DNA of 63,258 bases, filler included, from Sphacelaria rigidula (GCA_964200075.2; 11 parts of 11 records of this genome joined end to end with filler, not necessarily neighbours in it); one strand, 5' to 3'; shown: positions 50,131 to 63,258, counted from the whole stretch's first letter. The notes: generated from the sequence alone by a model not told the origin. Translations and numbers: made by a program.

Positions 50131-52751
50131 GCTGCCCATATGCCAAAAGACAACCGACCGACGCACCCGACGCCGAAAGAGCGCAAATACGAGACAGTAC
50201 AGGGCGGGGAGGAGGGGGGGGAGGAGAGAAAAGGAGAAAACATCACTAGAGGAAAACAAGGTGAAATCATGGGCGGCATGCGAGACTGCACTGCACGGTA
50301 AGATAACGCCCCATCCTCCTCGTCTCAGCAACCACGCGCGCCCCCAGATGTTATACCTCGCACGCACTCTCAAGAAAAAAGGTGTCAACAAGGGACAGTA
50401 TCTCCCAAAATACGTGCACGGCATCGTTAGGTGCAGGAAGGGATACTGGACAAAAACTTTTGAAGGCCGAGATCTTTTTCACACAAATGTTTTATTCTGT
50501 CCCTTCTGCTCTGACTGGGTTCGGGCATTCTGCGCGGTAACCAGAGACGGAGAGAAGGCAACGTGGAATACTTTGCCGAGAGCGTACCTGCAACATCGAT
50601 CGGTACGGCACAGCCAGCACTCTCGGGCGGAGGTTCGCGAGGAGTTAGAACGCCACCTCAAGACTAAACATGAGACTCTGTGGAACCAAAGAAGATGCCT
50701 CCGACACAAAGGCTGGGATGGGCGTCCCATCATATTTGTTTTCATTTTCTCTGTAAACCTCGGCTTCAGTTCGGTATGCGCGATTTTTCTCAATATTATT
50801 ATTTTATTTATTTATTTCACGCTTTTTTTCTTCAATCCCAGCTTGAACTCTTCAAGCGCAAACTAGGCGCGCTTTATGCGCCTCATTCCCGTCCTTGTTG
50901 TGGTGTTGTGCACACCCTGGACAATAGACGGCATCCATTGCAATAGCAATAGAATTTAGCGCAGTAGATGCAGATATTGTCGTCCGTAATGCCCGTCAAT
51001 CGACAAGTTTCCCTTTTTATTGTCATCGGCAATGTTTATCAGTAGAGCGCTTTCCCACACTATTGCTCGGGCAGCAGTTTATTGTGGCCCTACACCTAAA
51101 ACTGCTGTGTACAACATCTATTGAGGGCGGCAATGAATATCGATAATTACACTCCAGAATCTATTGTGGTACGGTATACAGTGCCGGGCGATATTCTCTG
51201 TCATCGAATGCCACACCTATAGCACATTGCAACATACCATGTAGAGAATATATTATACTCTGTTGAAGCTCGGTAGGGAAGCCGCAGGTGAACATACAGT
51301 GGTTATATGATGACACTATTTGTGAAAATATAACGTCACGATTCTGCAAATTTGGAACCGTTGTATGATGTAGGAACCCGCAATATGTGTGGACAAAAAT
51401 TTACAAGTTTGTTGTCAGTGTGATGTCGGTCCTCAGGGTTCATTCCTCTGATGGACATGAGCGCTTACAAACACGAGATTTTACAAATTGGGGATGGATT
51501 TTTACTGGGGATGAAAGCCCGGAAAATTAACATCTTATCCACAACAAATTTTCGATGCGTCGATTTCTTCACTTGCTGGTAGCTTTTGACAACTACGACA
51601 CGCCAAACAAATTTCGGTGGGTTTCAGGTGTCCGATCGGACGCCAAAATTGTTTCTTCACCCACGAGCTGGGCCAGCTTAACCCTATTGGGACTGGGCCT
51701 CCACAACGATCAACGAGGCTGGTTAGGAATGACGTGTCCTNNNNNNNNNNNNNNNNNNNNNNNNNNNNNNNNNNNNNNNNNNNNTTAATTAATTAANNNN
51801 NNNNNNNNNNNNNNNNNNNNNNNNNNNNNNNNNNNNNNNNATCGTTAGGAGCCTCTCAACCAGACAAAATTTCGCGAAAAAAGTGCACCCCTACCGTAGC
51901 ATTGCTCTAGACATTTGTGGAGTTTGAGCATGGCTCGAGATATTTCTGTTTTTGTGTCGTATTATTACTTTTCCATTCCGGTTTTCGACGGTATAGGTTT
52001 TCAAGTCATGGCTGAGCCGTGAACGGGGGGGCTAGTTGACTATGCTCACGCTCTGCCATGAACAACGCTGACGTAGGATACAGTGCGGTACAAATAACAT
52101 GCACCATGTTGCAATTGCGGAGGATTTGGTAACCAATCAGAGGAGTAATGTCTATGACGTAGATTATGCGAGTACAGTCACGTGTGCAGTGCGAGCAGCT
52201 GGGTTCCCCATCCCCCACTTCGATCATTCCCTCTTGGTCCATCTTGGTTCTCTGGGTGCCATCTACCTGCCTTGCTCTGAGGGTTAACATACGTGTATGT
52301 GGTGAGTCTGTGCGCGTGTGGTATTGAGTGGGAGAAATTGAGCATGTATTATCGTGTGAGTGAGGTTGATTGGAGTGTGTGAAAGTAAACAGGGTGAAGT
52401 GAAGAGATAATCGAAACGTGTTCTGGAACCATCTATAACTACTACTTATTACCTGAGCTAAGGTGCTGACCCCTGTTCACACACTTGAATTTTGTGGACG
52501 CTTACCCGTAACAGAGCGGTCGATTATCCCCAGGGTCTTCTGCCGGACTGTTCCTGCGGGCTAGTTCTTACCCTTGGTTCCAAGAAAATTCGCAGTCATG
52601 GCTATACTGTTGTGGAGTTCTTCTCATTCATTCATTCACCATGAGCGTGACACTTATTTATGAATATCAAGGAAATTCGCTCCACTATATCTCCAACTAC
52701 TGCGGGATGGATGTCACACTCGCACAAAAAACACGAGGGAATTATCCGTAC

Positions 52752-55700
52752 CCGTTTGCCATGATGACGCCCAGACCAGGCACTCTTCCTTTGTCGTTTT
52801 TTTCCGAAAGGGCAGTGACGCGATCCTTGACCTGCTGGCGGATGACCTTAGCGGCTAACTTTCCATTCAGCGGAAGGGCTGGGACTCCCACCTCCCGCAC
52901 CATATGAGTTGGCGTCGTGCCGAGGGAGGGGCTCTGCGCATATAGACGAAGTTCGCAGGAGGGAAAGACAGCAGAGCGGGGGAGATGTGATAGGAAGGCT
53001 GGCTGTGTTGCCTCATCCAGGCGTGAAAAGAGGGATTCTGATGTCGGAAGGCGCCGTGTAGATGTGTTTATGGCACGCAACGTGGGAGTAAAAACTAAGA
53101 GTTCGCACTGCCACGTGCCATCGGAAGTGGGTGTGATGCGTGAGACGACCGCGTGCTTAGAGGACGGCATCGGACTTTGAACATGCCTATGGTTAGGGTT
53201 AGGGCTAGGGTTAGTGTTAGTGTTGGGGTCAGGGGCGGGGTTCCTGCACGGACTGGCCCGTTTGGTTTCGGAAAACATCGATCGTCAATTGTTTCGAGCC
53301 ACGGCGCGGTCCTCTAAGCATGCGGTCCCCTCACGCACCACAGGGGTGTCATGTATGGTTGCTTGCACCCCCAATGCACGCAATAATCGCACCTGCATGC
53401 TAGTATTCAGCTTCCACCCCTACGTCGGTCGTTATTTTCAGGGTTCGTTAAGTTACACGTTACACATTACGTCACACATGTGACGTATGACACATTATAC
53501 GTTACGTCACGTCACAATTTATGACGTATGCAATTGTACGTTACGTCACGTCACATTTTGTTTCGGGTACATTACGGTACGTGACACTTGCGACGTATTA
53601 AAGAGTTATACTTTACGTTACGTCACAGTAACGTATTTTGAAACGTTTCCCGTAACGTGTAACGTATTTAATACGTTACACGTCGGAAAAAAGGATACAC
53701 GTCACTATGAACGTTACACGTAACAATGAAAGTTACACGTCACATTACTATACGTTTGTGACGTCTGAATGAACATCACAAATGTCACACGCTCAAGTTG
53801 TACCACAATTAGTGTGAGATTAGCATATGTGATACTCGCATGATATGATACATAGACTCAAGAAGAGTGTGCGTACTTCATCATGATACCCACGCGATGT
53901 GAGCGCAAGTTCAGCGCCACGGCAGCATGCACCGACACACCCGACCATAGAACATAGAACAAGCGAATATCGGAATCCGGAAGCACGAGTTTCGAATTTC
54001 CGACTTCGATAGCACAGACGGGGCGTGAGCGACGTGTGGTGTAACAATGCACGGGGCCCAGGATACCGTAACGATGAGCGAGCTGAAACGCTTTCGTACA
54101 TGTTGACATAGCGGGCAGAATGCGCCTCATGCTCGAACAAGGCAGCCACCGTGAACCTCCCGTACCAAGTTGCGGTACATAAAACCTTCCACCGTCGTAC
54201 GTGACGTTCATTTGCCCTCAACAGGGTCGAATTGTAAGTTCTTATTTTACGTCTCACGTCACAAACGTAACGTATATTATTCGTTTCACGTCACAATAAC
54301 GTTCCAAAATACGTTGCACGTCACAAACTTAACGATCCAAAATACGGTGCACGTCACAAACGTATAATAATGTGACGTATTGAAAAATTTATGGTGACGT
54401 GTAACGTATAGAGTACGTTACACGTTACATGAATCGTTTCTAAATAATACGTCAATGTGGGGTATAAACAAAAACGTCCCGTCACGTCACATTTGTGACG
54501 TATTGAAAAATTTAACGTTACGTAACGTCTTTTTTTTACCGGTACGTTACGTCACGTCACAGTTGTGACGTAGTCGAAAAAAATATGTTACATTATGTCA
54601 CACCCTTGCTTGTGACGTGTATCGTACGTGTAACGTGTAACGTTAAGAGCTCTGGTTATTTTGGTGATACCATTGACGTGTTTCCGAACGGCTTGACTGC
54701 TTAGAACTCCTGCTACGTGGTGCGTTGTATGCGATTGCTTGTGTGCCTGCCGCTCAGATGGCCGCTGGCACACGTAACCTTACGACAGATTATGAGTTAA
54801 TCGAGCGACATGCGTACAGCGCGAATCGGACTCTGACCACACCCCGTTTTCGCGTCGTGTAACCATTTTCAACCCGTCTATACCCTGAGATATCTGTTTT
54901 GCAACAAGGTTGGCCCTCTACGCTTGCTGTTCAACTTGCCGATAACCTAGCGACGTTCCAAAATACGCATCGTACTTCATACCTTGAAGACGAAACGACG
55001 ACGAGCGTCGTTATGCCATGGGCTGGAGAAACATTCTCGCATCTTCGACAGTTCCGATGCTCTGTACCTCTCAACCTACGTGTGGCACAGTATATCGACA
55101 TCAGTGAAAGCAAGTAGGTACGAGTCAGAGTTCGGCTGCGAGCTCTGCACAGCCTCACATGTTTCCCCAAAGTACGGGTGAATGTTGGTTAATGGAACCC
55201 ATTCGTAGGAGCACCCGAAGTCACAGCGATCGCAACAGGGTGGGGAAAAGAAAGCGAGACGTAAGTGAACGTGTCCGCCCGATCGAAGAAATGTATTCGT
55301 GGATCATAACCACGAGTGGGTGTGGATCTGGCATCATTTGTTGACTAGGTGTTGGTGTGATGGGATTCGAAGCCATCACGACGAAATGAGAGGAGCTGCA
55401 AGTCTCTATGCCATCGCGAATTTCTCACCCTTTGAAACCACGCAGTGTCTCTCTCTTGCTTCTTTGCAGCGATAATTTCCTCGGCCATACCACTTGCCAA
55501 GAGTTCCTGAGCGCGGCCTCGGATATAGCATGCCTAGTTCAATTTCGAAGAGCAGAAAAATGGTCCCGTTTTAAGGGCAGAATAGACGAGGCAGATGATC
55601 GGTCTCGCTGTCATAGGTTGCCCGCTTTTCAACTGACAGTGTCGGTGGGTATGGATTGCACTTGCGAAACAAGAGCGAAGATCTAAGTCATGGATGTTAG

Positions 55701-57499
55701 CGCCGCAACGGAGAAGGATATCAAATTTGTTTGGCCACACTCTACACCTCCCCTCCTTGGGACGAGGAACGGGCCTGGTCCGGCGAAAACCCGGTTCCCT
55801 CCTGGCTTTGTAGGGGTGCGAGGTCATAGGTGTCTTATGACTACGGCATGCAAGATCATGAGTATATCCCCCCCCCCCCCCCCCCCCCCCCCCCTCCACA
55901 GACGAGTCCGTTGTCTCAAAGAAACAAGCAATCTCTGCCCACTACAAGCCTTGCATTTCTATCTCGCAGGTTAGATCAACACTCGCGTACTGGGTTAGCG
56001 CTCGACAAACACACTTAGCCAACTACCTGTTGCTTACTCACGTACCCACGCTTTCAACGGTGAAAATCAGGTACTTCGAAGGAAAACCCAACGTTTCTGG
56101 CGGGAATCGAACCCACAGTCTCTACACCCTCATGGTGCCAGTCGGACCATTACTTACGCCACGGGGGTGCGGCGGTCTATTACACACCAAGTATTTTGAC
56201 CCGTCTTACTGTCACACATGAATGAATGACAAAAGATAAAGACGTATCCCATACTTTGCCGTCGGTTATGCTCCTCATTTTCGAGCTCGAATTTCTCGCG
56301 CATCGTTCTCCGCTTGCTTCGGAAAACACAAACAGTACAGTTTCATACCTCCTCATGGAAGGCCAAGCTTGGCGAGTAGCGCATCAAGTCGTCCACCATC
56401 CCAAGGGCTAGCGCTTGACTCGCCGTGATCGGTCGGGTGCTATCTGTGAGTTCCTTCGCTGCCTCCTTACCCATCCTTGCTTGTAAAAAGAATGACCAGT
56501 ATTCCGAACCCGTCAACTCCATGGTCTGTCAATCCACAAGTTCGCGAAGTACGAGGATCATTCTGGTGGTAGTGGAGTGGAGGGTACGTTTAGGATCGGA
56601 CAGCGCTTCGCAAAACCTGCGCGCAACGCTTCACGATTGTTTCTTCGGGTGATGTTTTGAGGGCAACCCGATGTCGCGTGAAGAAACAACCGGTCTCCAA
56701 GTTGTCCAGGCAATAAAGCTACGCGCACACAAAAAACACCTTTGTGGAGCTGTCTACTGGTCAAACCCGCGGTCGTCCTCCTGATAGCATCGATAGTCTT
56801 TGGGGCGGCGTTGTCGCGCCCTTCGTGGTAATTGTGCGCTCTTTTACGACAACGCATCTCAATGCTCAAGCGTACCTTATAGTGGGGATTGAGGATAATG
56901 TTTTCGTGAGCCCACACGAGATCGGACGACATTGCTGCCATTGCCCCGCCGGCTCCGGCATTGCCCCGCATGGCGCTGATGACGACCTTGTCCGTGATAG
57001 AGAACGCTTCCATGATCGAGTCGTTGATCGCGTTGATGTTCCTCCACGATTCCTGCATAAACGCGACATATAATACCACCGGCCGGTGATTCACGTGGCG
57101 ACGGCGGTCGATCTGTATGTGACACCAAATGTCTCTTGTATCATGTGAGCTAGAACAGTCGGCCGTATAGATGTGTTAGAGGGAGATTGTAGCGGCTTTT
57201 GTAACGCTTCTCAGTTGCCGGTATGCCGCGCTCCGACGTCCACAAGTCGACAGAGCGACATTGACATGGTGTGATATGGACGAAAAAATGAAAGCGGGAG
57301 CACTACCATGTGCTTATGTCGGATACGGTATGTCGCTACACACCGTTGCCGAATGGTGCGCGATAAAATTTGACTCATTACCATCTGGGGATCAGCGCTG
57401 GTCTCGATGACGTTGAGGTTGATCCCGTTTCCACAGCTGTGCTCATTGCCCATAAGCACCAGGGCCTTTACGTCATCTCTCTCTCCTATCTCGCGGGTA
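52752..57499 (-). CDS. hypX: Partial spliced gene: HypX/HoxX C-terminal crotonase-like domain fused to FolD-like N-terminus; exons 57499-57382, 57052-56876, 56525-56349, 55533-55429, 55075-54983, 52933-52752
   Basis: All five introns GT-AG phase 0, no stops: LVLMGNEHSCGNGINLNVIETSADPQM|ESWRNINAIND..AMRGNAGAGGAMAAMSSDLVWAHENIILNPHYK|TMELTGSEYWSF..ALGMVD..|..|YRASELSKMRECF..HNDARRRFVFK|SPSLGTTPTHM..LNGKLAAKVIRQQVKDRVTAL..VPGLGVIMANG. Confidence 0.88.
53132..53342. mobile_element. TGT...ACA MITE (copy 3), intronic
   Basis: Same TIRs and internal TTAGGG-like tract as copies at 6424 and 20947, more diverged. Confidence 0.85.
53439..54654. mobile_element. Non-autonomous hAT-type element (1216 bp), intronic, 8-bp TSD GTTATTTT
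   Basis: GTTATTTT|CAGGGTTCGTTAAGTTACACGTTACAC ... GTGTAACGTGTAACGTTAAGAGCTCTG|GTTATTTT; subterminal ACGTCAC/GTTACG arrays. Confidence 0.9.
55755..55866 (+). repeat. Dispersed short repeat (also 1-45 and reverse at 44066-44170)
   Basis: cgaggtc..ggt.tcttatgacta.ggcatgca.gatcatgagta shared between three contigs. Confidence 0.65.
56080..56168 (-). repeat. tRNA-derived SINE-like head (intronic)
   Basis: Minus strand has an A-box-like TGGCGTAAGTAATGG and a B-box GGTTCGATTCC; no convincing cloverleaf. Confidence 0.5.
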
Positions 57500-57599
57500 N
57501 NNNNNNNNNNNNNNNNNNNNNNNNNNNNNNNNNNNNNNNNNNNTTAATTAATTAANNNNNNNNNNNNNNNNNNNNNNNNNNNNNNNNNNNNNNNNNNNN

Positions 57600-59239: not shown

Positions 59240-62200
59240 TGTAGCCAAAGGATACCAAGCCGCAGGGTTCAGTATAAGCGCATGGATGATTGGAACAGTG
59301 GCAGGGGACAGGGGATCCTGGATTGATGGTCCTTATCTCTGTGGCCCCTTGCTGCTGGCTCGTGATGTGGTCTGTTGAGGATCACTCCGTGATAATAACA
59401 AGTGAGAAGAAAGGACTCATCGAGCAAGAGGCCAGTGCTACTGGAGGAGTCCCTCGTTGACAGTTCTCTTGTCCAGATCGTCTGGCAGAGGCTATACTAT
59501 CTAGATATTCTTGCGGGCCTCTGTTAGAGACGTTTGGCTGAGGAGAACAGTGGGCCGCAGCTGGAAGCCAGTTTAGCCCGCAGACAGAGAGACCAACTTG
59601 AGGCGCACAGCAGTGGGTGACGCTCCGTGGGCTGGAGGACGCACAAGTCAGGCAAGAGTCTCTCAGTGAAGTGCTGAATCCTAGACGACATGGCTCAAGC
59701 GGCGGCAGCGCCGCTGGTGTTAGGTGAGCCTCTAGAACTGCCAAAGTATGGCGAAGTGTTGACAGAGGAAGCCTTAAAAACGTTTTGGCCAGATATGTCG
59801 ACTATTTAGAGAGGTTGCATTTGACCAATGCATCAGGAGTCATAAGGCATGCCAGGGTGGGCATCGGACAACTTATTCCAACATATATTCACCGGTGCTT
59901 TGAAGGCATGTTCAAGGACCGTCGGACTATGACCCCCGATGAATTGCTAGGTGCTGTGAAGCAGCATGCCGGGTACACCACAACCGACGGTAAGCATGAC
60001 ACTGCGCGGGTTGCAGCAGACCTGCGTAAAGTACTTACGATGCAGCCAAGCGATGGAGCATCCGTCAAGAGTAGAGCGATGATGGTCAATTCGTCGATGG
60101 ACAAGTTCTTCGCTAAAAACCTGACGGTGCAAGCCATGCACCGTGCGGACAGGAGCTGGTTGCCAGGTCCGACCGAGTCGGTTTCCACAGCTTTGTTATA
60201 CTACATTTCGCCTCCGGAATTCAAGGCGTATGTTAGAAGCGTGCTAACGTATGTAGACGGATGGAAGAAGAACCCGACGGTGGTGTTCCACAAAATATTT
60301 GATGCCGCCGACCAGCGGAAGTTCATTCAAGCACATAGCCGGCGAGATTCTGCAACATGTGCAAGTGGTGCACGCCGTAAACAACGACAGCAACAGAAAT
60401 AGCAGCCGTCTTCGCGAGCGTCGTCCACTCGCGCGTGTTACGATTGCGGCGACAGCGGACACCTGATTAAGGACTGCCCCAAGCCTCGTACTCACGGCGC
60501 TGCTCAAGGAAATGCGCGAGATTCATCAGAATTTCGAGGCGGTCGTCACGGTGGACGGAGCCGTGCCAACCAGGGACACGGGCGCGTCGGCCGCGGTAAC
60601 AATCAATCGGCGGCGGATGGTGGTTTTTCCGCTCCTGTTTCTTCCACTACGTGACCAGGTGGTGACTCTGGAGCTTATGGGTCGTCCGTAGCGGGGCGGA
60701 CAGTGTACGTGGGAAATGCAAATACTTCGGTGGAGAGAGCTGGAGCGAATAGTTCGCAACCCCTCGGCCAGGCAGGATCCGTGTCTGGTGCATCTCCTAC
60801 TGCTGCGACGGCTGTAACATAGCCGTCTGCATATTCGTCGACTTGGTCTGGTTGGACCGACGATTCTCAGTCATCGATGTCAAGTGCTGGAGGGTAGCCC
60901 TGGCGTCAGGTGACTCTTGGTACCGACTACGGTTCTTCGGCAGGTGTAGTACCTGTCGATCGCAAGGCTGAGTGCTTACGCGCAGAATTTTCCTTGCCTG
61001 GTTCCGTAGGTTCGTTCATGGCCCGCGTGATTCTGGATTCTGGGTCCGTGCTCACATCGATCGGTGTGGGGTTGCTAGAACAAATGTCTTCGCAGTTTGG
61101 CGGCGCTCAGCTTCAGATTCCGTTCGAAAACGGACCGCAAACGACACAGACCGCCACGGGTGTTCCTGTGACGGTTACACATAAAACGGTGCCGATTACT
61201 CTTAGCGAGCGTACGCCGTGGGGGGCTGTAGAGATGCAGCCCATTACTTCCGCTGTCATGGTTCTATTCGGGATGGCGACGATGAAGGAGCTCGGGATTG
61301 ATTTGTACCCGCTGGCGTTGGATAAGTTACGCCCGAGTGCTGTGCCGGTGCAGACCGGCGTGGAGAATCCCAGCTATTTTGCTGCAAGGCGTGTGACCGT
61401 ATCCACACGGTCATTCCAGAGCGCCAATGAGGAGGAGGCTCCTGCGGATGAAGCGGTAGAGCGCTTGGTCGATCGGGGGGCCGATATATTCATGGACCCA
61501 GCGGAGGAGAGAGGTTCGAGAGAACGTGCGCTTGAGGATAGCGTGTAGCAGGCCGAGCAGAAGGGCCTGAGCGCCGATGGCGCACGTTGTCTGCGTGATA
61601 TTTTGGCTCGTCGCGTGGATACATTTCGTCGTGCGCTGCGTGGTGATCCGCCAGCGCGCGTAGAGCCCATGAGGGTAAACCTCAAGCCAGAGGCAAATAC
61701 GGTGAAGGTCAAGCCCAGACGCTATGATCCGGTGAAGACCGGGGGGCTTGCCTCATGCATCGCAGCTTTGGTGGCGTTTGGTTTAGGGGTCAGGAACATC
61801 CAGGCTGTGTGGGCGAGTCCGGCGATGACGGTGCCGAAGAGTGAAACATTTCGTTCGGTCAGCGACTATCAGGCGGTGAACGCGCAAGGGCAACAGTCTC
61901 CGGGGGTGATGCCAAGCCAAGAAGACACGCGGGAGTTGCTGGGAGCCCAATGCTTCGGTAAGTTGGACCTGCTACAAGGGTATTGGCAGATGCTCCTGGC
62001 GCCGGAGGCTCAGGATATCTCCTTACGCCTACTCGTGTCTTGCAGGGCGTGTTGAACGCCACGGCGTATTTGCAGCGTGCACTGACTGACATTTTGCGAG
62101 GTCTAGATTGTAAAGTGTGGGTGGGTGGCGTTTTCTATTTTGCTGAAACTGAAGAAGCACTGTTAGCTTTGCTTGACGAAATTCTTGGCCGCTTGGAGAG

Positions 62201-63258
62201 TGTTGGTCTGTTCGTCGCTGCGCGTGAGTGTACGTTTTTCGCCCGCGAAGTGGTTTGGTGTGGTGAGGTGTACTCCAAGGGTACTGTTTGGCATGATCCC
62301 GTCCGTATTCAAGGTTTGAGCAATAGGCGACGTCCTCAAACCGCTAGTGAGCTGATGCCGTTTATGCAGGCGGTGAATTGGTTGCGGACTTTACTTCCGC
62401 GCATGGCACAAGTAGTTGCGCCGCTTCGAGTTTTTCTGGAACAACTTATGGTCGGGGCTTCGCGTCGGACCAAGCGGGTGGCGCGTAATCGTACAATCCC
62501 GGAGGACGCTTGGACGGAGGATCGTGTGCGGGCATGGCGTGCTGCGCAAGATTTGGTGGCGCAAGTGGTGCCGCTGCATCATCCTCGTCCAGGGTGCGTT
62601 GTTCTGATGCTTCCAGATGCTTCGGATTTTCACTGGGGTAGTTTTTTGACGCAAGTGCCTGTCGCAGAGTTTAGTAGTGGCATTGCGCTCGAAAATATGT
62701 CACACAAACCGTTGGCTTTTCTGAGTGGTAGTTTCAAGGGTTCACAGTTGCGGTGGGCAATAGTGGACAAGGAAGGTTTCGCGATAGTCAATACATGTCG
62801 AAGGCTAGAGTACTTGCTTTGGAGTGGTGTTCGCATTTTCACCGACCATCGCAATCTAAAATACATCTTAATCCCGGAGAGTGCGTCACATCGGTGACGA
62901 AGGCCATGGCGCAACGGCTTGAAAATTGGAAAGGAGTACTCGGCCAATGTCGGTATGCCATTGAACACAGTCCTGGAGAGCGCAATTGTTGGGGAGATTT
63001 GTTGTCTCGCTGGGTGAAGGTTCCCACCGTGCCTGTTCGTTCTGTTGCCGTGTACAGCCCGTGTGATGCCGATTATTCGCTGCCCTCGTTAGATGCCATT
63101 CGTACCGCGCAGCGCAAAAAAATCGGCGACGGTGTTCATTCTTTTCCTACGACCTTCGGTCAAGCTACTTTGGCTGACGATGGTTTGTTTCGCGTGCGTG
63201 TTGGCAGTAGTGATGTTTTGTGGATTCCGTCGGATGATAAGGGTCTACAAACTCGCTT
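59240..63258 (+). mobile_element. Second Ty3/gypsy retrotransposon, decayed: putative 5' LTR, gag, protease, RT, RNase H
   Basis: TG start truncating the hairpin array; CCHC knuckle CYDCGDSGHLIKDC (~60435); protease ILDSGS; RT WASP, LDLLQGYWQ, QGVLNA, VWVGG (DD lost); RNase H DASDFHWG, KEGFAIV, FTDHRNL. Confidence 0.93.

What the first reader, a model, noticed from the sequence alone, without database searches (positions are those of the whole stretch)
52752..57499. Intron-containing HypX/HoxX fused to a FolD-like domain: a possible self-supplying formyl-THF to CO enzyme in an alga
Seen: six exons splice cleanly (five phase-0 GT-AG introns, no stops) into the HypX C-terminal domain (NGINLNVIE, ESWRNINAIND, GNAGAGG, LNPHYK..GSEYW, R..EL..M...F...R..FV.K..TP.H). 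This runs straight into LNGKLAAKVIRQQVKDRV...PGLGVIM, the typical start of FolD methylene-THF dehydrogenase/cyclohydrolase. Known: bacterial HypX converts N10-formyl-THF via formyl-CoA to CO for aerobic [NiFe]-hydrogenase maturation, and FolD produces N10-formyl-THF. The Tyr of NPHY and Glu of GSE, proposed as catalytic in Aquifex HypX, are retained here. Inference: the fusion would channel one-carbon units to CO (or formyl-CoA) in an organism not expected to have a [NiFe]-hydrogenase, implying a different role such as haem-independent CO production, signalling or C1 overflow. The N-terminal formyltransferase domain and the rest of FolD lie outside the contig.
Basis: partly seen in the sequence, partly recalled or inferred. 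Interest (0 to 1): 0.85.

Follow-up and report, generated by a model that had tools for sequence, protein, structure and literature searches.

The report
Brown-alga HypX–FolD fusion gene fragment
A brown-alga gene fragment encodes a bacterial-type carbon-monoxide-making enzyme joined to the folate enzyme that feeds it, pointing to an unstudied, haem-independent way for algae and other eukaryotes to make CO.

Summary
Six minus-strand exons (57499-52752) are separated by five GT-AG, phase-0 introns. They give 284 codons without a stop, collinear with residues 344-627 of a 911-aa brown-alga protein (82% identity). A 3380-nt intron-less contig, from a run only guessed to be RNA, joins exactly these six blocks, including the 54983|52933 junction.

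The protein is a HypX-type formyl-THF decarbonylase. Its C-terminal tail runs, inside one exon and after about 7 linker residues, into FolD. The proposed decarbonylase Tyr and Glu are present in the window. Full-length relatives keep the formyltransferase triad and the FolD catalytic residues.

The contig (51841-57499) ends on both sides, so the N-terminal domain and most of FolD are missing here.

The fusion is not unique. It occurs in other brown algae, Chrysoparadoxa, a dinoflagellate, a heterolobosean and, separately, in Chloroflexota. Unfused "HoxX-like" genes sit in cnidarians, amphioxus, mosses and others.

No paper in the searchable library describes a eukaryotic HypX.

The most likely function is mitochondrial conversion of methylene-THF to CO. 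This is inferred, not shown.

The parts
57382..57499 (-). Exon 1 (cut by the contig end at 57499): start of the HypX crotonase-fold domain, with GNGINLNVIE
   Evidence: tblastn to P0004 residues 344-382, E 5e-16; block 57499-57381 of the spliced contig X3 record 14; GT donor at 57381
57053..57381 (-). Intron 1, 329 nt, GT..AG, phase 0
56876..57052 (-). Exon 2: ESWRNINAIND, GNAGAGG (oxyanion-hole region) and NPHYK, whose Tyr is the equivalent of Aquifex HypX Tyr416
   Evidence: Pfam ECH_1 E 3.6e-4; 97% identity to a Sphacelaria rigidula partial protein; residue mapping through the 6j0p alignment
56526..56875 (-). Intron 2, 350 nt, GT..AG, phase 0
56349..56525 (-). Exon 3: GSEYW, whose Glu is the equivalent of Aquifex HypX Glu426
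   Evidence: tblastn E 1e-27; Pfam ECH_1 E 0.033
55534..56348 (-). Intron 3, 815 nt, GT..AG, phase 0; holds a poly-G run near 55870-55900
55429..55533 (-). Exon 4: helical C-terminal part of the HypX domain
   Evidence: tblastn E 1e-8
55076..55428 (-). Intron 4, 353 nt, GT..AG, phase 0
54983..55075 (-). Exon 5: last helix of HypX up to the FV.K motif of the C-terminal tail
   Evidence: tblastn E 3e-13, 94% identity to P0004
52934..54982 (-). Intron 5, 2049 nt, GT..AG, phase 0. It is enlarged by a repeat element bounded by inverted repeats (53439-53465 / 54628-54654) with ACGT-rich subterminal repeats, plus a high-copy stretch at 52975-53352
   Evidence: depth in DNA run X4 is 2,700-71,000 here against about 100 over the exons
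52752..52933 (-). Exon 6, the fusion exon: end of the HypX C-terminal tail (..TP.H, about 52933-52904), about 7 linker residues, then the first ~43 residues of FolD (from about 52882). It ends in phase 2 at a GT donor
   Evidence: tblastn E 7e-25; Pfam PF00763 positions 1-36 of 115 at 52870-52754, E 0.0063; the Aquifex tail aligns across the junction in P0004; block 52933-52751 of X3 record 14
51841..52751 (-). Start of intron 6 up to the contig end; no further FolD exon lies here
   Evidence: sensitive tblastn found nothing; the spliced contig continues 1777 nt that do not lie on this stretch
57500..57599 (.). Artificial linker (N44-TTAATTAATTAA-N44) between unrelated contigs; an equal one lies at 51741-51840

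Best explanation
The stretch is the middle third (six exons, about residues 344-627 of a 910-980-aa protein) of an expressed nuclear gene. The organism is a brown alga, Sphacelaria or a close relative.

The gene encodes a three-part enzyme: a HypX formyltransferase domain (outside this contig), a HypX crotonase-fold decarbonylase domain (exons 1-5), and a complete FolD. FolD is attached directly to the HypX C-terminal tail inside exon 6, and most of it lies outside the contig.

Proposed mechanism:
- FolD oxidises 5,10-methylene-THF with NAD(P)+ and opens methenyl-THF to N10-formyl-THF.
- The HypX N-domain (His-Asp-Asp triad) passes the formyl group to its bound CoA.
- The crotonase-fold domain (Tyr of NPHYK, Glu of GSEYW) decarbonylates formyl-CoA to CO and CoA.
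- The net reaction is methylene-THF + NAD(P)+ + H2O -> THF + NAD(P)H + CO.

The enzyme probably acts in mitochondria as a branch of serine-derived one-carbon oxidation. No [NiFe]-hydrogenase is expected in the organism, so the CO, or the release of THF, is the end in itself.

Shown: gene structure, splicing, the fusion, conservation of all catalytic residues, and wide occurrence.
Inferred: the chemistry (from bacterial HypX and FolD), the compartment, and the physiological role.
For: Gene and fusion:
- Six collinear exons with GT-AG introns and no stops.
- Intron-less contigs join exons 1-6 (X3 record 14, 3380 nt) and exons 2-5 (X1 record 5, 577 nt), while DNA run X4 carries the introns.
- Of the 27 listed differences between that contig and the window, 18 are synonymous and 9 are not, so both copies are under protein-level constraint.

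Identity (orthologue P0004):
- Residues 1-575 align with Aquifex HypX 6j0p, E 7e-105.
- Residues 584-891 align with FolD structures 4a26, 1a4i and 1b0a, E about 1e-57.
- The HypX tail aligns across the exon 5/6 junction.

Catalytic residues (Muraki 2019 PMC6802093 passages):
- The equivalents of His74 and Asp80 are present in 90 of 94 aligned rows; the other 4 rows are N-truncated.
- The equivalents of Asp109, Tyr416 and Glu426 are invariant in 94 of 94 rows.
- The FolD Ser49, Gln100 and Asp125 equivalents are kept in 35 of 35 fused rows.
- Lys56 is kept in all 17 eukaryote-type fused rows.

Same architecture elsewhere:
- 31 of the 120 best hits to P0004 carry ECH plus FolD Pfam domains. They include Ascophyllum, Cladosiphon, Undaria (partial), Chrysoparadoxa, Togula and Pharyngomonas.
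- Chloroflexota MAG contigs encode a full fusion (L001, all five Pfam domains).
- On the HypX part these bacterial fusions sit apart from the eukaryote-type ones. A single clade of all fused rows is rejected on a 36-row subset of the 94 rows (p-AU 1.3e-8). So the same pairing arose or was kept at least twice, which argues for a functional link between the two activities.

Compartment:
- 22 of 34 rows of the eukaryote-type clade, against 1 of 60 rows of the bacterial clade, carry a basic, acid-poor N-terminal extension of 15 or more residues.
Against: - No enzyme activity, CO measurement or localisation was tested.
- The window holds neither the formyltransferase domain nor the FolD catalytic motif, so for this very gene they are inferred from orthologues and from the unseen rest of the spliced contig.
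- The runs with the spliced contigs are only guessed to be RNA.
- Those contigs differ from the window at 37 of 853 letters. They therefore show expression of an allele or close strain, not strictly of this copy.
- In the same runs, contigs identical to the window run unspliced from intron 5 into exon 6 (52826-53177). These could be pre-mRNA, DNA carry-over or an internal start.
- The presequence reading rests on composition alone and on automatic gene models.
- The AU test used a group named after the tree was seen, a subset of rows and a simple model; the full-set test did not finish.
- The one recent proposal I read for a eukaryotic CO-filled float (Physalia) names haem oxygenase, not a folate enzyme.
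Confidence: 0.6

Rival explanations
1. The chemistry is the same, but CO is only the waste form. The enzyme is a one-carbon overflow valve that frees THF from 10-formyl-THF, doing the job of formyl-THF dehydrogenase (ALDH1L) or hydrolase (PurU). It would then have no signalling or buoyancy role.
For: The fusion to FolD and the likely mitochondrial presequence place it in the one-carbon oxidation path. The gene occurs in algae without floats (Sphacelaria-like, Cladosiphon) and in many unrelated eukaryotes. The HypX N-domain is homologous to the hydrolase domain of formyl-THF dehydrogenase (Muraki 2019 passages).
Against: Releasing a toxic gas instead of CO2 + NADPH or formate gives up energy. 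Nothing here separates role from chemistry.
Confidence: 0.22
2. The protein does not release CO. It shuttles formyl groups between CoA and THF, for example salvaging formyl-CoA from alpha-oxidation or oxalate breakdown into the folate pool, with FolD then reducing the product to methylene-THF.
For: Formyl transfer and both FolD steps are reversible in principle (established enzymology, recalled). Eukaryotes do make formyl-CoA (recalled).
Against: The two residues whose mutation abolishes HypX function in Ralstonia (the Tyr416 and Glu426 equivalents) are invariant in 94 of 94 rows, including all eukaryotic ones. In HypX, CoA is a constitutively bound prosthetic group, not a free substrate (Muraki 2019 passage).
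Confidence: 0.1
3. The alga, or an organelle or partner of it, has a CO-ligated metal centre such as a cryptic [NiFe]-hydrogenase, and the enzyme serves its maturation as in bacteria.
For: This is the only proven role of HypX (review PMC12134894 passages).
Against: [NiFe]-hydrogenases are described for bacteria and archaea only (abstract of PMC12134894). HoxX-like genes sit on chromosome-scale contigs of Hydra, corals, amphioxus, a tardigrade and mosses, where no such enzyme is known. I could not search this genome for hyp genes.
Confidence: 0.04
4. These are two neighbouring genes, or a FolD-only gene starting at the in-frame ATG of exon 6, wrongly read as one; or the contig is bacterial contamination or a dead copy.
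For: An in-frame Met lies about 11 codons before the FolD start in exon 6. Contigs identical to the window run unspliced from intron 5 into exon 6 in X1-X3, so a FolD-only isoform from an internal start is not excluded as an addition.
Against: The HypX tail continues into exon 6 and aligns there with the Aquifex tail. Spliced contigs bridge the junction. Orthologous single ORFs of 908-1008 aa come from transcriptomes, and P0004 is 911 aa on a 3562-nt contig. The stretch has five spliceosomal introns, its best hits are brown algae, and 18 of 27 differences are synonymous.
Confidence: 0.04

Closest known systems
Bacterial HypX/HoxX, the formyl-THF decarbonylase of aerobic [NiFe]-hydrogenase maturation (Aquifex aeolicus, PDB 6j0p; Cupriavidus necator HoxX)
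   Same: Both have a formyltransferase domain plus a crotonase-fold domain. P0004 residues 1-575 align end to end with 6j0p (E 7e-105). The window's 284 residues are 40% identical to Cupriavidus HoxX over 238 residues (E 5e-46). All five proposed catalytic residues are kept.
   Different: The window's gene is nuclear, has spliceosomal introns and a probable organellar presequence, and is fused to FolD. The host has no expected [NiFe]-hydrogenase, so there is no HypCD acceptor for the CO.
FolD / MTHFD dehydrogenase-cyclohydrolase (E. coli 1b0a, human MTHFD1 DC domain 1a4i, Leishmania 4a26)
   Same: The fold and motifs match (E about 1e-57). The Ser49, Tyr52, Lys56, Gln100 and Asp125 equivalents and the PVPGGVGPMT loop are kept in the orthologue.
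   Different: Here FolD hangs on the C-terminus of HypX. It is neither free-standing nor N-terminal to formyl-THF synthetase as in eukaryotic C1-THF synthase (the latter recalled). The alignment shows about 12 extra residues before the NAD(P) domain. Only the first ~43 residues lie in the window.
HypX-FolD fusions of Chloroflexota (L001, L002; protein cluster around P0134, about 861 aa)
   Same: The five-domain order is the same. HypX catalytic residues are kept.
   Different: They form a separate, well-supported clade inside bacterial unfused HypX (18 rows, SH-aLRT 100). The FolD Lys56 position is Ile in 18 of 18 rows. They have no N-terminal extension.
Unfused eukaryotic 'hydrogenase maturation factor HoxX-like' proteins (Trichoplax, Hydra, Nematostella, corals, Branchiostoma, Hypsibius, Bradysia, Pinctada; Ceratodon, Calypogeia, Chara)
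   Same: They fall in the same HypX clade as the brown-alga protein (34 rows, SH-aLRT 98). The catalytic residues and the N-terminal extensions are the same.
   Different: They have no FolD domain. Function is unknown in all of them.
10-formyl-THF dehydrogenase (ALDH1L1/FDH)
   Same: The logic is the same: a formyltransferase-like domain hands the formyl group of 10-formyl-THF to a pantetheine thiol, which carries it to a second catalytic domain, where the carbon leaves as a gas and THF is freed (Muraki 2019 passages).
   Different: In FDH the second domain is an aldehyde dehydrogenase and the product is CO2 + NADPH, not CO. This is not a family membership.
Haem oxygenase
   Same: It is the accepted enzymatic source of CO in eukaryotes, and it is the one proposed for the Physalia float (PMC13579702, section 8).
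   Different: The fold, substrate and carbon source are unrelated. It cannot by itself account for CO carbon coming from the one-carbon pool.

Membership tests
HypX/HoxX (formyl-THF decarbonylase) | C-terminal crotonase (ECH)-fold domain of the HypX type | tested here: met
   Exon-wise Pfam ECH_1 hits have E 3.6e-4 and 0.033; they fall below the family cut-off because each exon is a fragment. 2162 of 2178 candidates matched exon 2 at E<=0.001, and the best 120 listed were mostly HypX/HoxX-type proteins. The spliced 284 residues match Cupriavidus HoxX with E 5e-46.
HypX/HoxX (formyl-THF decarbonylase) | Tyr416 and Glu426 (Aquifex numbering), needed for function | tested here: met
   NPHYK ends exon 2 and GSEYW lies in exon 3. 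They are mapped onto Tyr416 and Glu426 through the P0004-6j0p alignment. Both are invariant in 94 of 94 rows.
HypX/HoxX (formyl-THF decarbonylase) | N-terminal formyltransferase domain with the His74-Asp80-Asp109 triad | not testable with these tools
   It lies beyond the contig end at 57499, and no match exists elsewhere in the window. It is present with the triad in orthologues P0004, P0005 and P0006. The spliced contig has 750 more letters upstream, but I could not read them.
HypX/HoxX (formyl-THF decarbonylase) | Works with hyp genes / a [NiFe]-hydrogenase | not testable with these tools
   No whole genome is held for this window. From established knowledge no eukaryotic [NiFe]-hydrogenase is expected. 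The short Chloroflexota contig L001 showed no hyp neighbours either.
HypX/HoxX (formyl-THF decarbonylase) | Releases CO from N10-formyl-THF via formyl-CoA | not testable with these tools
   This needs a biochemical assay.
FolD (methylene-THF dehydrogenase / methenyl-THF cyclohydrolase) | Catalytic N-domain (PF00763) | tested here: inconclusive
   The window holds only profile positions 1-36 of 115 (E 0.0063, 17.2 bits against a cut-off of 32.8). The full domain is present in the orthologues.
FolD (methylene-THF dehydrogenase / methenyl-THF cyclohydrolase) | Ser49-Tyr52-Lys56 motif, Gln100, Asp125 (human numbering) | not testable with these tools
   The motif starts just after the end of exon 6, outside the contig. 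In the orthologues it is met: Ser, Gln and Asp in 35 of 35 fused rows, Tyr in 34 of 35, and Lys in 17 of 17 eukaryote-type rows.
FolD (methylene-THF dehydrogenase / methenyl-THF cyclohydrolase) | NAD(P)-binding domain (PF02882) | not testable with these tools
   It lies outside the contig. It is present in the orthologues and in L001 (E 1e-58).
Eukaryote-type HypX-FolD fusion proteins (unnamed family) | HypX tail, short linker and FolD start in one reading frame, collinear with the fused orthologues | tested here: met
   Exon 6 matches P0004 residues 562-627 (E 7e-25) and Ascophyllum residues 647-711 (E 3e-23) across the junction. Spliced contigs bridge exon 5 to exon 6.

The most novel reading that the evidence does not exclude
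HypX-type enzymes form an overlooked, haem-independent, folate-dependent CO synthase of eukaryotes. They are fused to FolD in brown algae and several protists, and unfused in cnidarians, amphioxus, bryophytes and others.

In brown algae the fusion would turn serine-derived methylene-THF into CO in mitochondria. It would then be the source of the CO long known in kelp floats. Its cnidarian counterpart would explain the classic finding that siphonophore float CO derives from L-serine, a route for which a 2026 genome paper offers only haem oxygenase.
Probability: 0.3. Interest if true: 0.9.

Novelty: new variant of a known kind. Interest (0 to 1): 0.72.

Why it matters
HypX is so far known only as a helper of bacterial O2-tolerant [NiFe]-hydrogenases. 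Finding it intact, spliced, under constraint and welded to its substrate supplier in an alga means a second enzymatic route to CO may exist in eukaryotes besides haem oxygenase. The same holds for the many eukaryotes that have no such hydrogenase.

That would give a candidate gene for two old physiological puzzles:
- CO in bull-kelp pneumatocysts (passages of PMC9601103 citing Liggan & Martone 2020).
- Serine-derived CO in siphonophore floats (passage of PMC13579702 citing Wittenberg 1960).

It would also add a new exit from mitochondrial one-carbon metabolism. The idea is directly testable with one recombinant protein and a CO assay.

Tried and rejected
- Whole-genome search: no genome is held for this window. 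The missing exons, hyp genes and hydrogenases therefore could not be sought.
- Rest of the gene in the window: sensitive tblastn with P0004 and P0005 found nothing beyond the six exons; the best other hit had E 0.23.
- RNA holders: no listed holder is on record as RNA. X1-X3 are guesses and were used only for what their contigs bridge.
- Atlas search with P0004: not available. The stored homologue P0011 was used instead.
- Earlier findings of this scan: none.
- AU test on all 94 rows: not finished after three runs. It was replaced by a 36-row subset with a simpler model.
- Gene context of the bacterial fusion: L001 shows a STAND/TPR protein and an Fmt-like formyltransferase but no hydrogenase genes, which is uninformative on a 7-kb contig.
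- tRNA scan of the contig: 0 genes, although intron 3 has a B-box-like GGTTCGATTCC.
- Bacterial contamination: rejected (introns, brown-alga best hits).
- Literature: ten searches found no paper on a eukaryotic HypX. Three of the ten were on kelp or siphonophore CO and gave context only. Subscription journals are not covered.
- Loewus & Delwiche 1963 and Langdon 1917 on algal CO are recalled only and were not read.

Full report
**What the window is.** The 63-kb window is not one piece of chromosome. Ten identical linkers (N44-TTAATTAATTAA-N44) at a 5760-base period join contigs of about 5660 bases. The finding lies in the contig 51841-57499. The neighbouring contig (57600 onwards) carries a retrotransposon pol fragment (RT_RNaseH, E 1e-14) and is not physically linked. 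No whole genome is held for the window.

**The observation.** tblastn with three brown-alga proteins returned by the first homology search gives six collinear segments: 57498-57382, 57052-56876, 56528-56349, 55533-55414, 55075-54983 and 52948-52751. For P0004 these cover residues 344-627, with E from 1e-8 to 1e-27. A more permissive search found nothing else in the window; the next best hit had E 0.23.

With canonical boundaries, all five introns are GT..AG and phase 0, with lengths 329, 350, 815, 353 and 2049 nt. The joined frame has 284 codons and no stop, while the other two frames have 10 and 7 stops. A GT donor follows exon 6. The joined product is 81.7% identical to P0004, 71% to the Ascophyllum nodosum protein, and 97.5% to a 119-aa partial protein of Sphacelaria rigidula. 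So the organism is a brown alga close to Sphacelaria.

**Is the junction used?** Of six runs that hold words of this stretch, none is on record as RNA. Three small runs (X1-X3) are guessed to be RNA.
- Laid on the contig, record 14 of X3 (3380 nt) lies on exactly six blocks that are contiguous in the record: 57499-57381, 57051-56875, 56524-56348, 55532-55427, 55073-54983 and 52933-52751. It has 750 more letters before and 1777 after.
- Record 5 of X1 (577 nt) joins exons 2-5.
- DNA run X4 covers the introns.
- An intron-less form next to an intron-bearing genome is what an mRNA gives.
- These contigs differ from the window at 37 of 853 letters, so they come from an allele or a close strain. 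Of the 27 differences listed by the tool, 18 are synonymous and 9 are not, which indicates constraint on the protein.
- Independent support comes from orthologues. P0004 is a 911-aa ORF on a 3562-nt contig, and transcriptome ORFs of 908-1008 aa have the same architecture.

**What it encodes.** P0004 residues 1-575 align end to end with Aquifex aeolicus HypX (6j0p, E 7e-105). Residues 584-891 align with FolD structures (4a26, 1a4i, 1b0a; E about 1e-57). The last aligned HypX residues, the C-terminal tail (FV.K...TP), straddle the exon 5/6 junction. About 7 residues later FolD begins, all within exon 6. This is a tight, in-exon fusion, not a readthrough of two genes.

Counting along the 6j0p alignment (the chain carries a 20-residue tag), the Tyr of NPHYK is Tyr416 and the Glu of GSEYW is Glu426. 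Both are in the window. Muraki et al. 2019 (PMC6802093; passages read) name His74, Asp80 and Asp109 as the formyl-transfer triad, and Tyr416 and Glu426 as the decarbonylation residues. They report that the corresponding Ralstonia mutants are HypX-negative.

In my 94-row alignment:
- Asp109, Tyr416 and Glu426 equivalents are invariant.
- His74 and Asp80 equivalents are present in the 90 rows that are not N-truncated.
- The FolD Ser49, Gln100 and Asp125 equivalents are kept in 35 of 35 fused rows, and Tyr52 in 34 of 35.
- Lys56 is kept in all 17 eukaryote-type fused rows but is Ile in all 18 Chloroflexota-type rows.

In the window itself, Pfam sees only fragments: ECH_1 at E 3.6e-4 and 0.033, and THF_DHG_CYH positions 1-36 of 115 at E 0.0063, all below the family cut-offs. 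The formyltransferase domain and the FolD catalytic motif lie beyond the contig ends.

**Who else has it.**
- Of the 120 best hits to P0004, 31 carry both ECH and FolD Pfam domains.
- Named fused forms are Ascophyllum nodosum, Cladosiphon okamuranus, Undaria pinnatifida (partial model), Chrysoparadoxa australica, the dinoflagellate Togula, the heterolobosean Pharyngomonas kirbyi, and a Neocalanus copepod transcriptome. For the last, food or symbionts cannot be excluded.
- The exhaustive representative search lists at least 8 full-length fused representatives of 858 aa or more among its best 150, plus fragments that cross the junction. In total 1935 proteins matched at E<=1e-30.
- Two of 78 loci from the one-genome-per-species scan, both Chloroflexota MAGs, match the 861-aa metagenomic fusion over its full length. 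L001 encodes an 851-aa ORF with all five Pfam domains.
- Unfused relatives named 'hydrogenase maturation factor HoxX-like' sit on chromosome-scale contigs of Hydra vulgaris, Nematostella, Montipora, Oculina, Branchiostoma (several copies), Hypsibius, Bradysia and Pinctada. Others are in Trichoplax, the moss Ceratodon, the liverwort Calypogeia and Chara.
- The Atlas adds a cluster whose commonest phylum is Cnidaria and a 206-member Ascomycota cluster (leads only).

**Tree.** The tree was built on the HypX part (94 rows, 561 columns, quick IQ-TREE).
- A 34-row clade (SH-aLRT 98) holds all 14 rows with a eukaryote source name, fused and unfused, plus 20 unnamed rows including P0004.
- The 18 Chloroflexota-type fusions form their own clade (SH-aLRT 100) inside the 60-row bacterial side.
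- The fusion label needs 6 changes on this tree, and at least 4 are forced by well-supported branches.
- On a 36-row subset (LG+G4), a tree with all fused rows held together is rejected (delta lnL 223, p-AU 1.3e-8).
- Caveats: the group was named after seeing the tree, and the full-set test did not finish.
- Within the eukaryote-type clade the fused forms are scattered and mostly early-branching. An ancestral fusion with later losses of FolD is therefore as possible as several gains. The root is unknown.

**Compartment.** 22 of the 34 rows of the eukaryote-type clade, against 1 of 60 bacterial-side rows, have 15 or more residues before the conserved HypX start. These extensions are rich in Arg, Lys, Ser and Ala and poor in acidic residues at their beginning. 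That is the make-up of mitochondrial presequences. It also suggests that most unnamed rows of this clade are eukaryotic. No predictor was available, so this is an inference.

**Mechanism proposed.** FolD makes N10-formyl-THF from methylene-THF. HypX transfers the formyl group to its bound CoA and decarbonylates it to CO. The HypX chemistry is established for the bacterial enzyme (review PMC12134894, passages). The same pairing occurs in two separate parts of the HypX tree, which is the classic sign that the two activities work on one pathway. [NiFe]-hydrogenases are described only for bacteria and archaea (same review, abstract). The eukaryotic enzyme therefore has no known acceptor for CO, and either free CO or regenerated THF is the likely purpose.

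**Known or new?** The gene models exist in public catalogues, so the sequence is not new. In the searchable library (PMC open-access and bioRxiv):
- No paper combines HypX with eukaryotes, brown algae, Trichoplax or moss.
- 'HoxX-like' occurs only in two Chromobacterium papers.
- The 37 papers since 2019 that contain 'HypX' are, by title, either about bacterial hydrogenases or use the word as an abbreviation for hypoxia or hyperoxia.
- Neither the HypX structure paper nor the 2025 review contains 'eukaryot'.

**Link to old physiology (lead, not evidence).** Bull-kelp bulbs are reported as high in CO (PMC9601103 passages citing Liggan & Martone 2020). [quoted passage not shown] That 2026 paper attributes the CO to a horizontally acquired haem oxygenase and mentions neither folate, formyl nor HypX (section 8 read, supplements not seen). 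A kelp (Undaria) has the fusion and a hydrozoan (Hydra) has the unfused gene. Nereocystis and siphonophores themselves were not examined.

**Limits.**
- This contig shows one third of the gene.
- Activity, compartment and role are untested.
- The RNA status of the runs is a guess.
- Subscription literature was not searched.

Noticed in passing
window 5662-57599 (ten sites, period 5760): The window is an artificial chain of ~5660-bp contigs of almost equal length joined by N44-TTAATTAATTAA-N44 linkers. Neighbouring stretches are therefore not linked in the genome.
   Followed up: yes
window 53439-54654 (inside intron 5): A repeat element is bounded by inverted repeats (27 nt, 81%) and filled with ACGT-rich subterminal direct and inverted repeats (GTGACGTAACGT-like). 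Its depth in DNA run X4 is tens of times the exon depth, so it looks like a non-autonomous DNA transposon that inflated this intron.
   Followed up: partly
window 51841-52029 and 52975-53352: These are very high-copy stretches: word depth in X4 is 620,000 and 40,000-71,000 against about 100 over the exons. Many contigs break at 51905-51909. A short telomere-like CCCTAA-type run lies near 53190-53235.
   Followed up: no
window 52815-53177 and 52235-52300: In the putative RNA runs, contigs identical to the window run unspliced from intron 5 into exon 6 (X1 record 3, X3 record 15). X2 record 12 further joins 52815 to 52300 without GT-AG ends. This could be pre-mRNA, DNA carry-over, an internal start giving a FolD-only product, or a chimeric contig. 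It is unexplained.
   Followed up: partly
window 52751-57499 (exons): The spliced contigs differ from the window at 37 of 853 letters. DNA run X4 shares some of these letters but has contigs identical to the window elsewhere, so two diverged haplotypes or strains of the same organism are present. 18 of the 27 listed differences are synonymous.
   Followed up: yes
L001:373-2928 and proteins P0125-P0137, P0143, P0147, P0157, P0158, P0227, P0228: The Chloroflexota-type HypX-FolD fusions have Ile at the position of the FolD catalytic Lys56 in 18 of 18 rows, with a Lys two residues earlier. Their FolD part may have changed or lost the cyclohydrolase activity.
   Followed up: partly
proteins: HypX-like genes are widespread in eukaryotes without known [NiFe]-hydrogenases: cnidarians, amphioxus with several paralogues, a tardigrade, a fungus gnat, a pearl oyster, bryophytes and Chara. 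The Atlas also shows a 206-member Ascomycota cluster with ECH_1 + Formyl_trans_C.
   Followed up: partly
window 55860-55905 and about 56100-56160 (intron 3): Intron 3 holds a run of about 30 G and a tRNA-like B-box (GGTTCGATTCC), perhaps a SINE remnant. ARAGORN finds no tRNA.
   Followed up: partly
window 61962-62897 (+): An LTR-retrotransposon pol fragment (RT_RNaseH, E 1e-14) lies in the next, unlinked contig. The ORF at 59728-60402 has a CCHC zinc-knuckle-like motif but no Pfam hit.
   Followed up: partly
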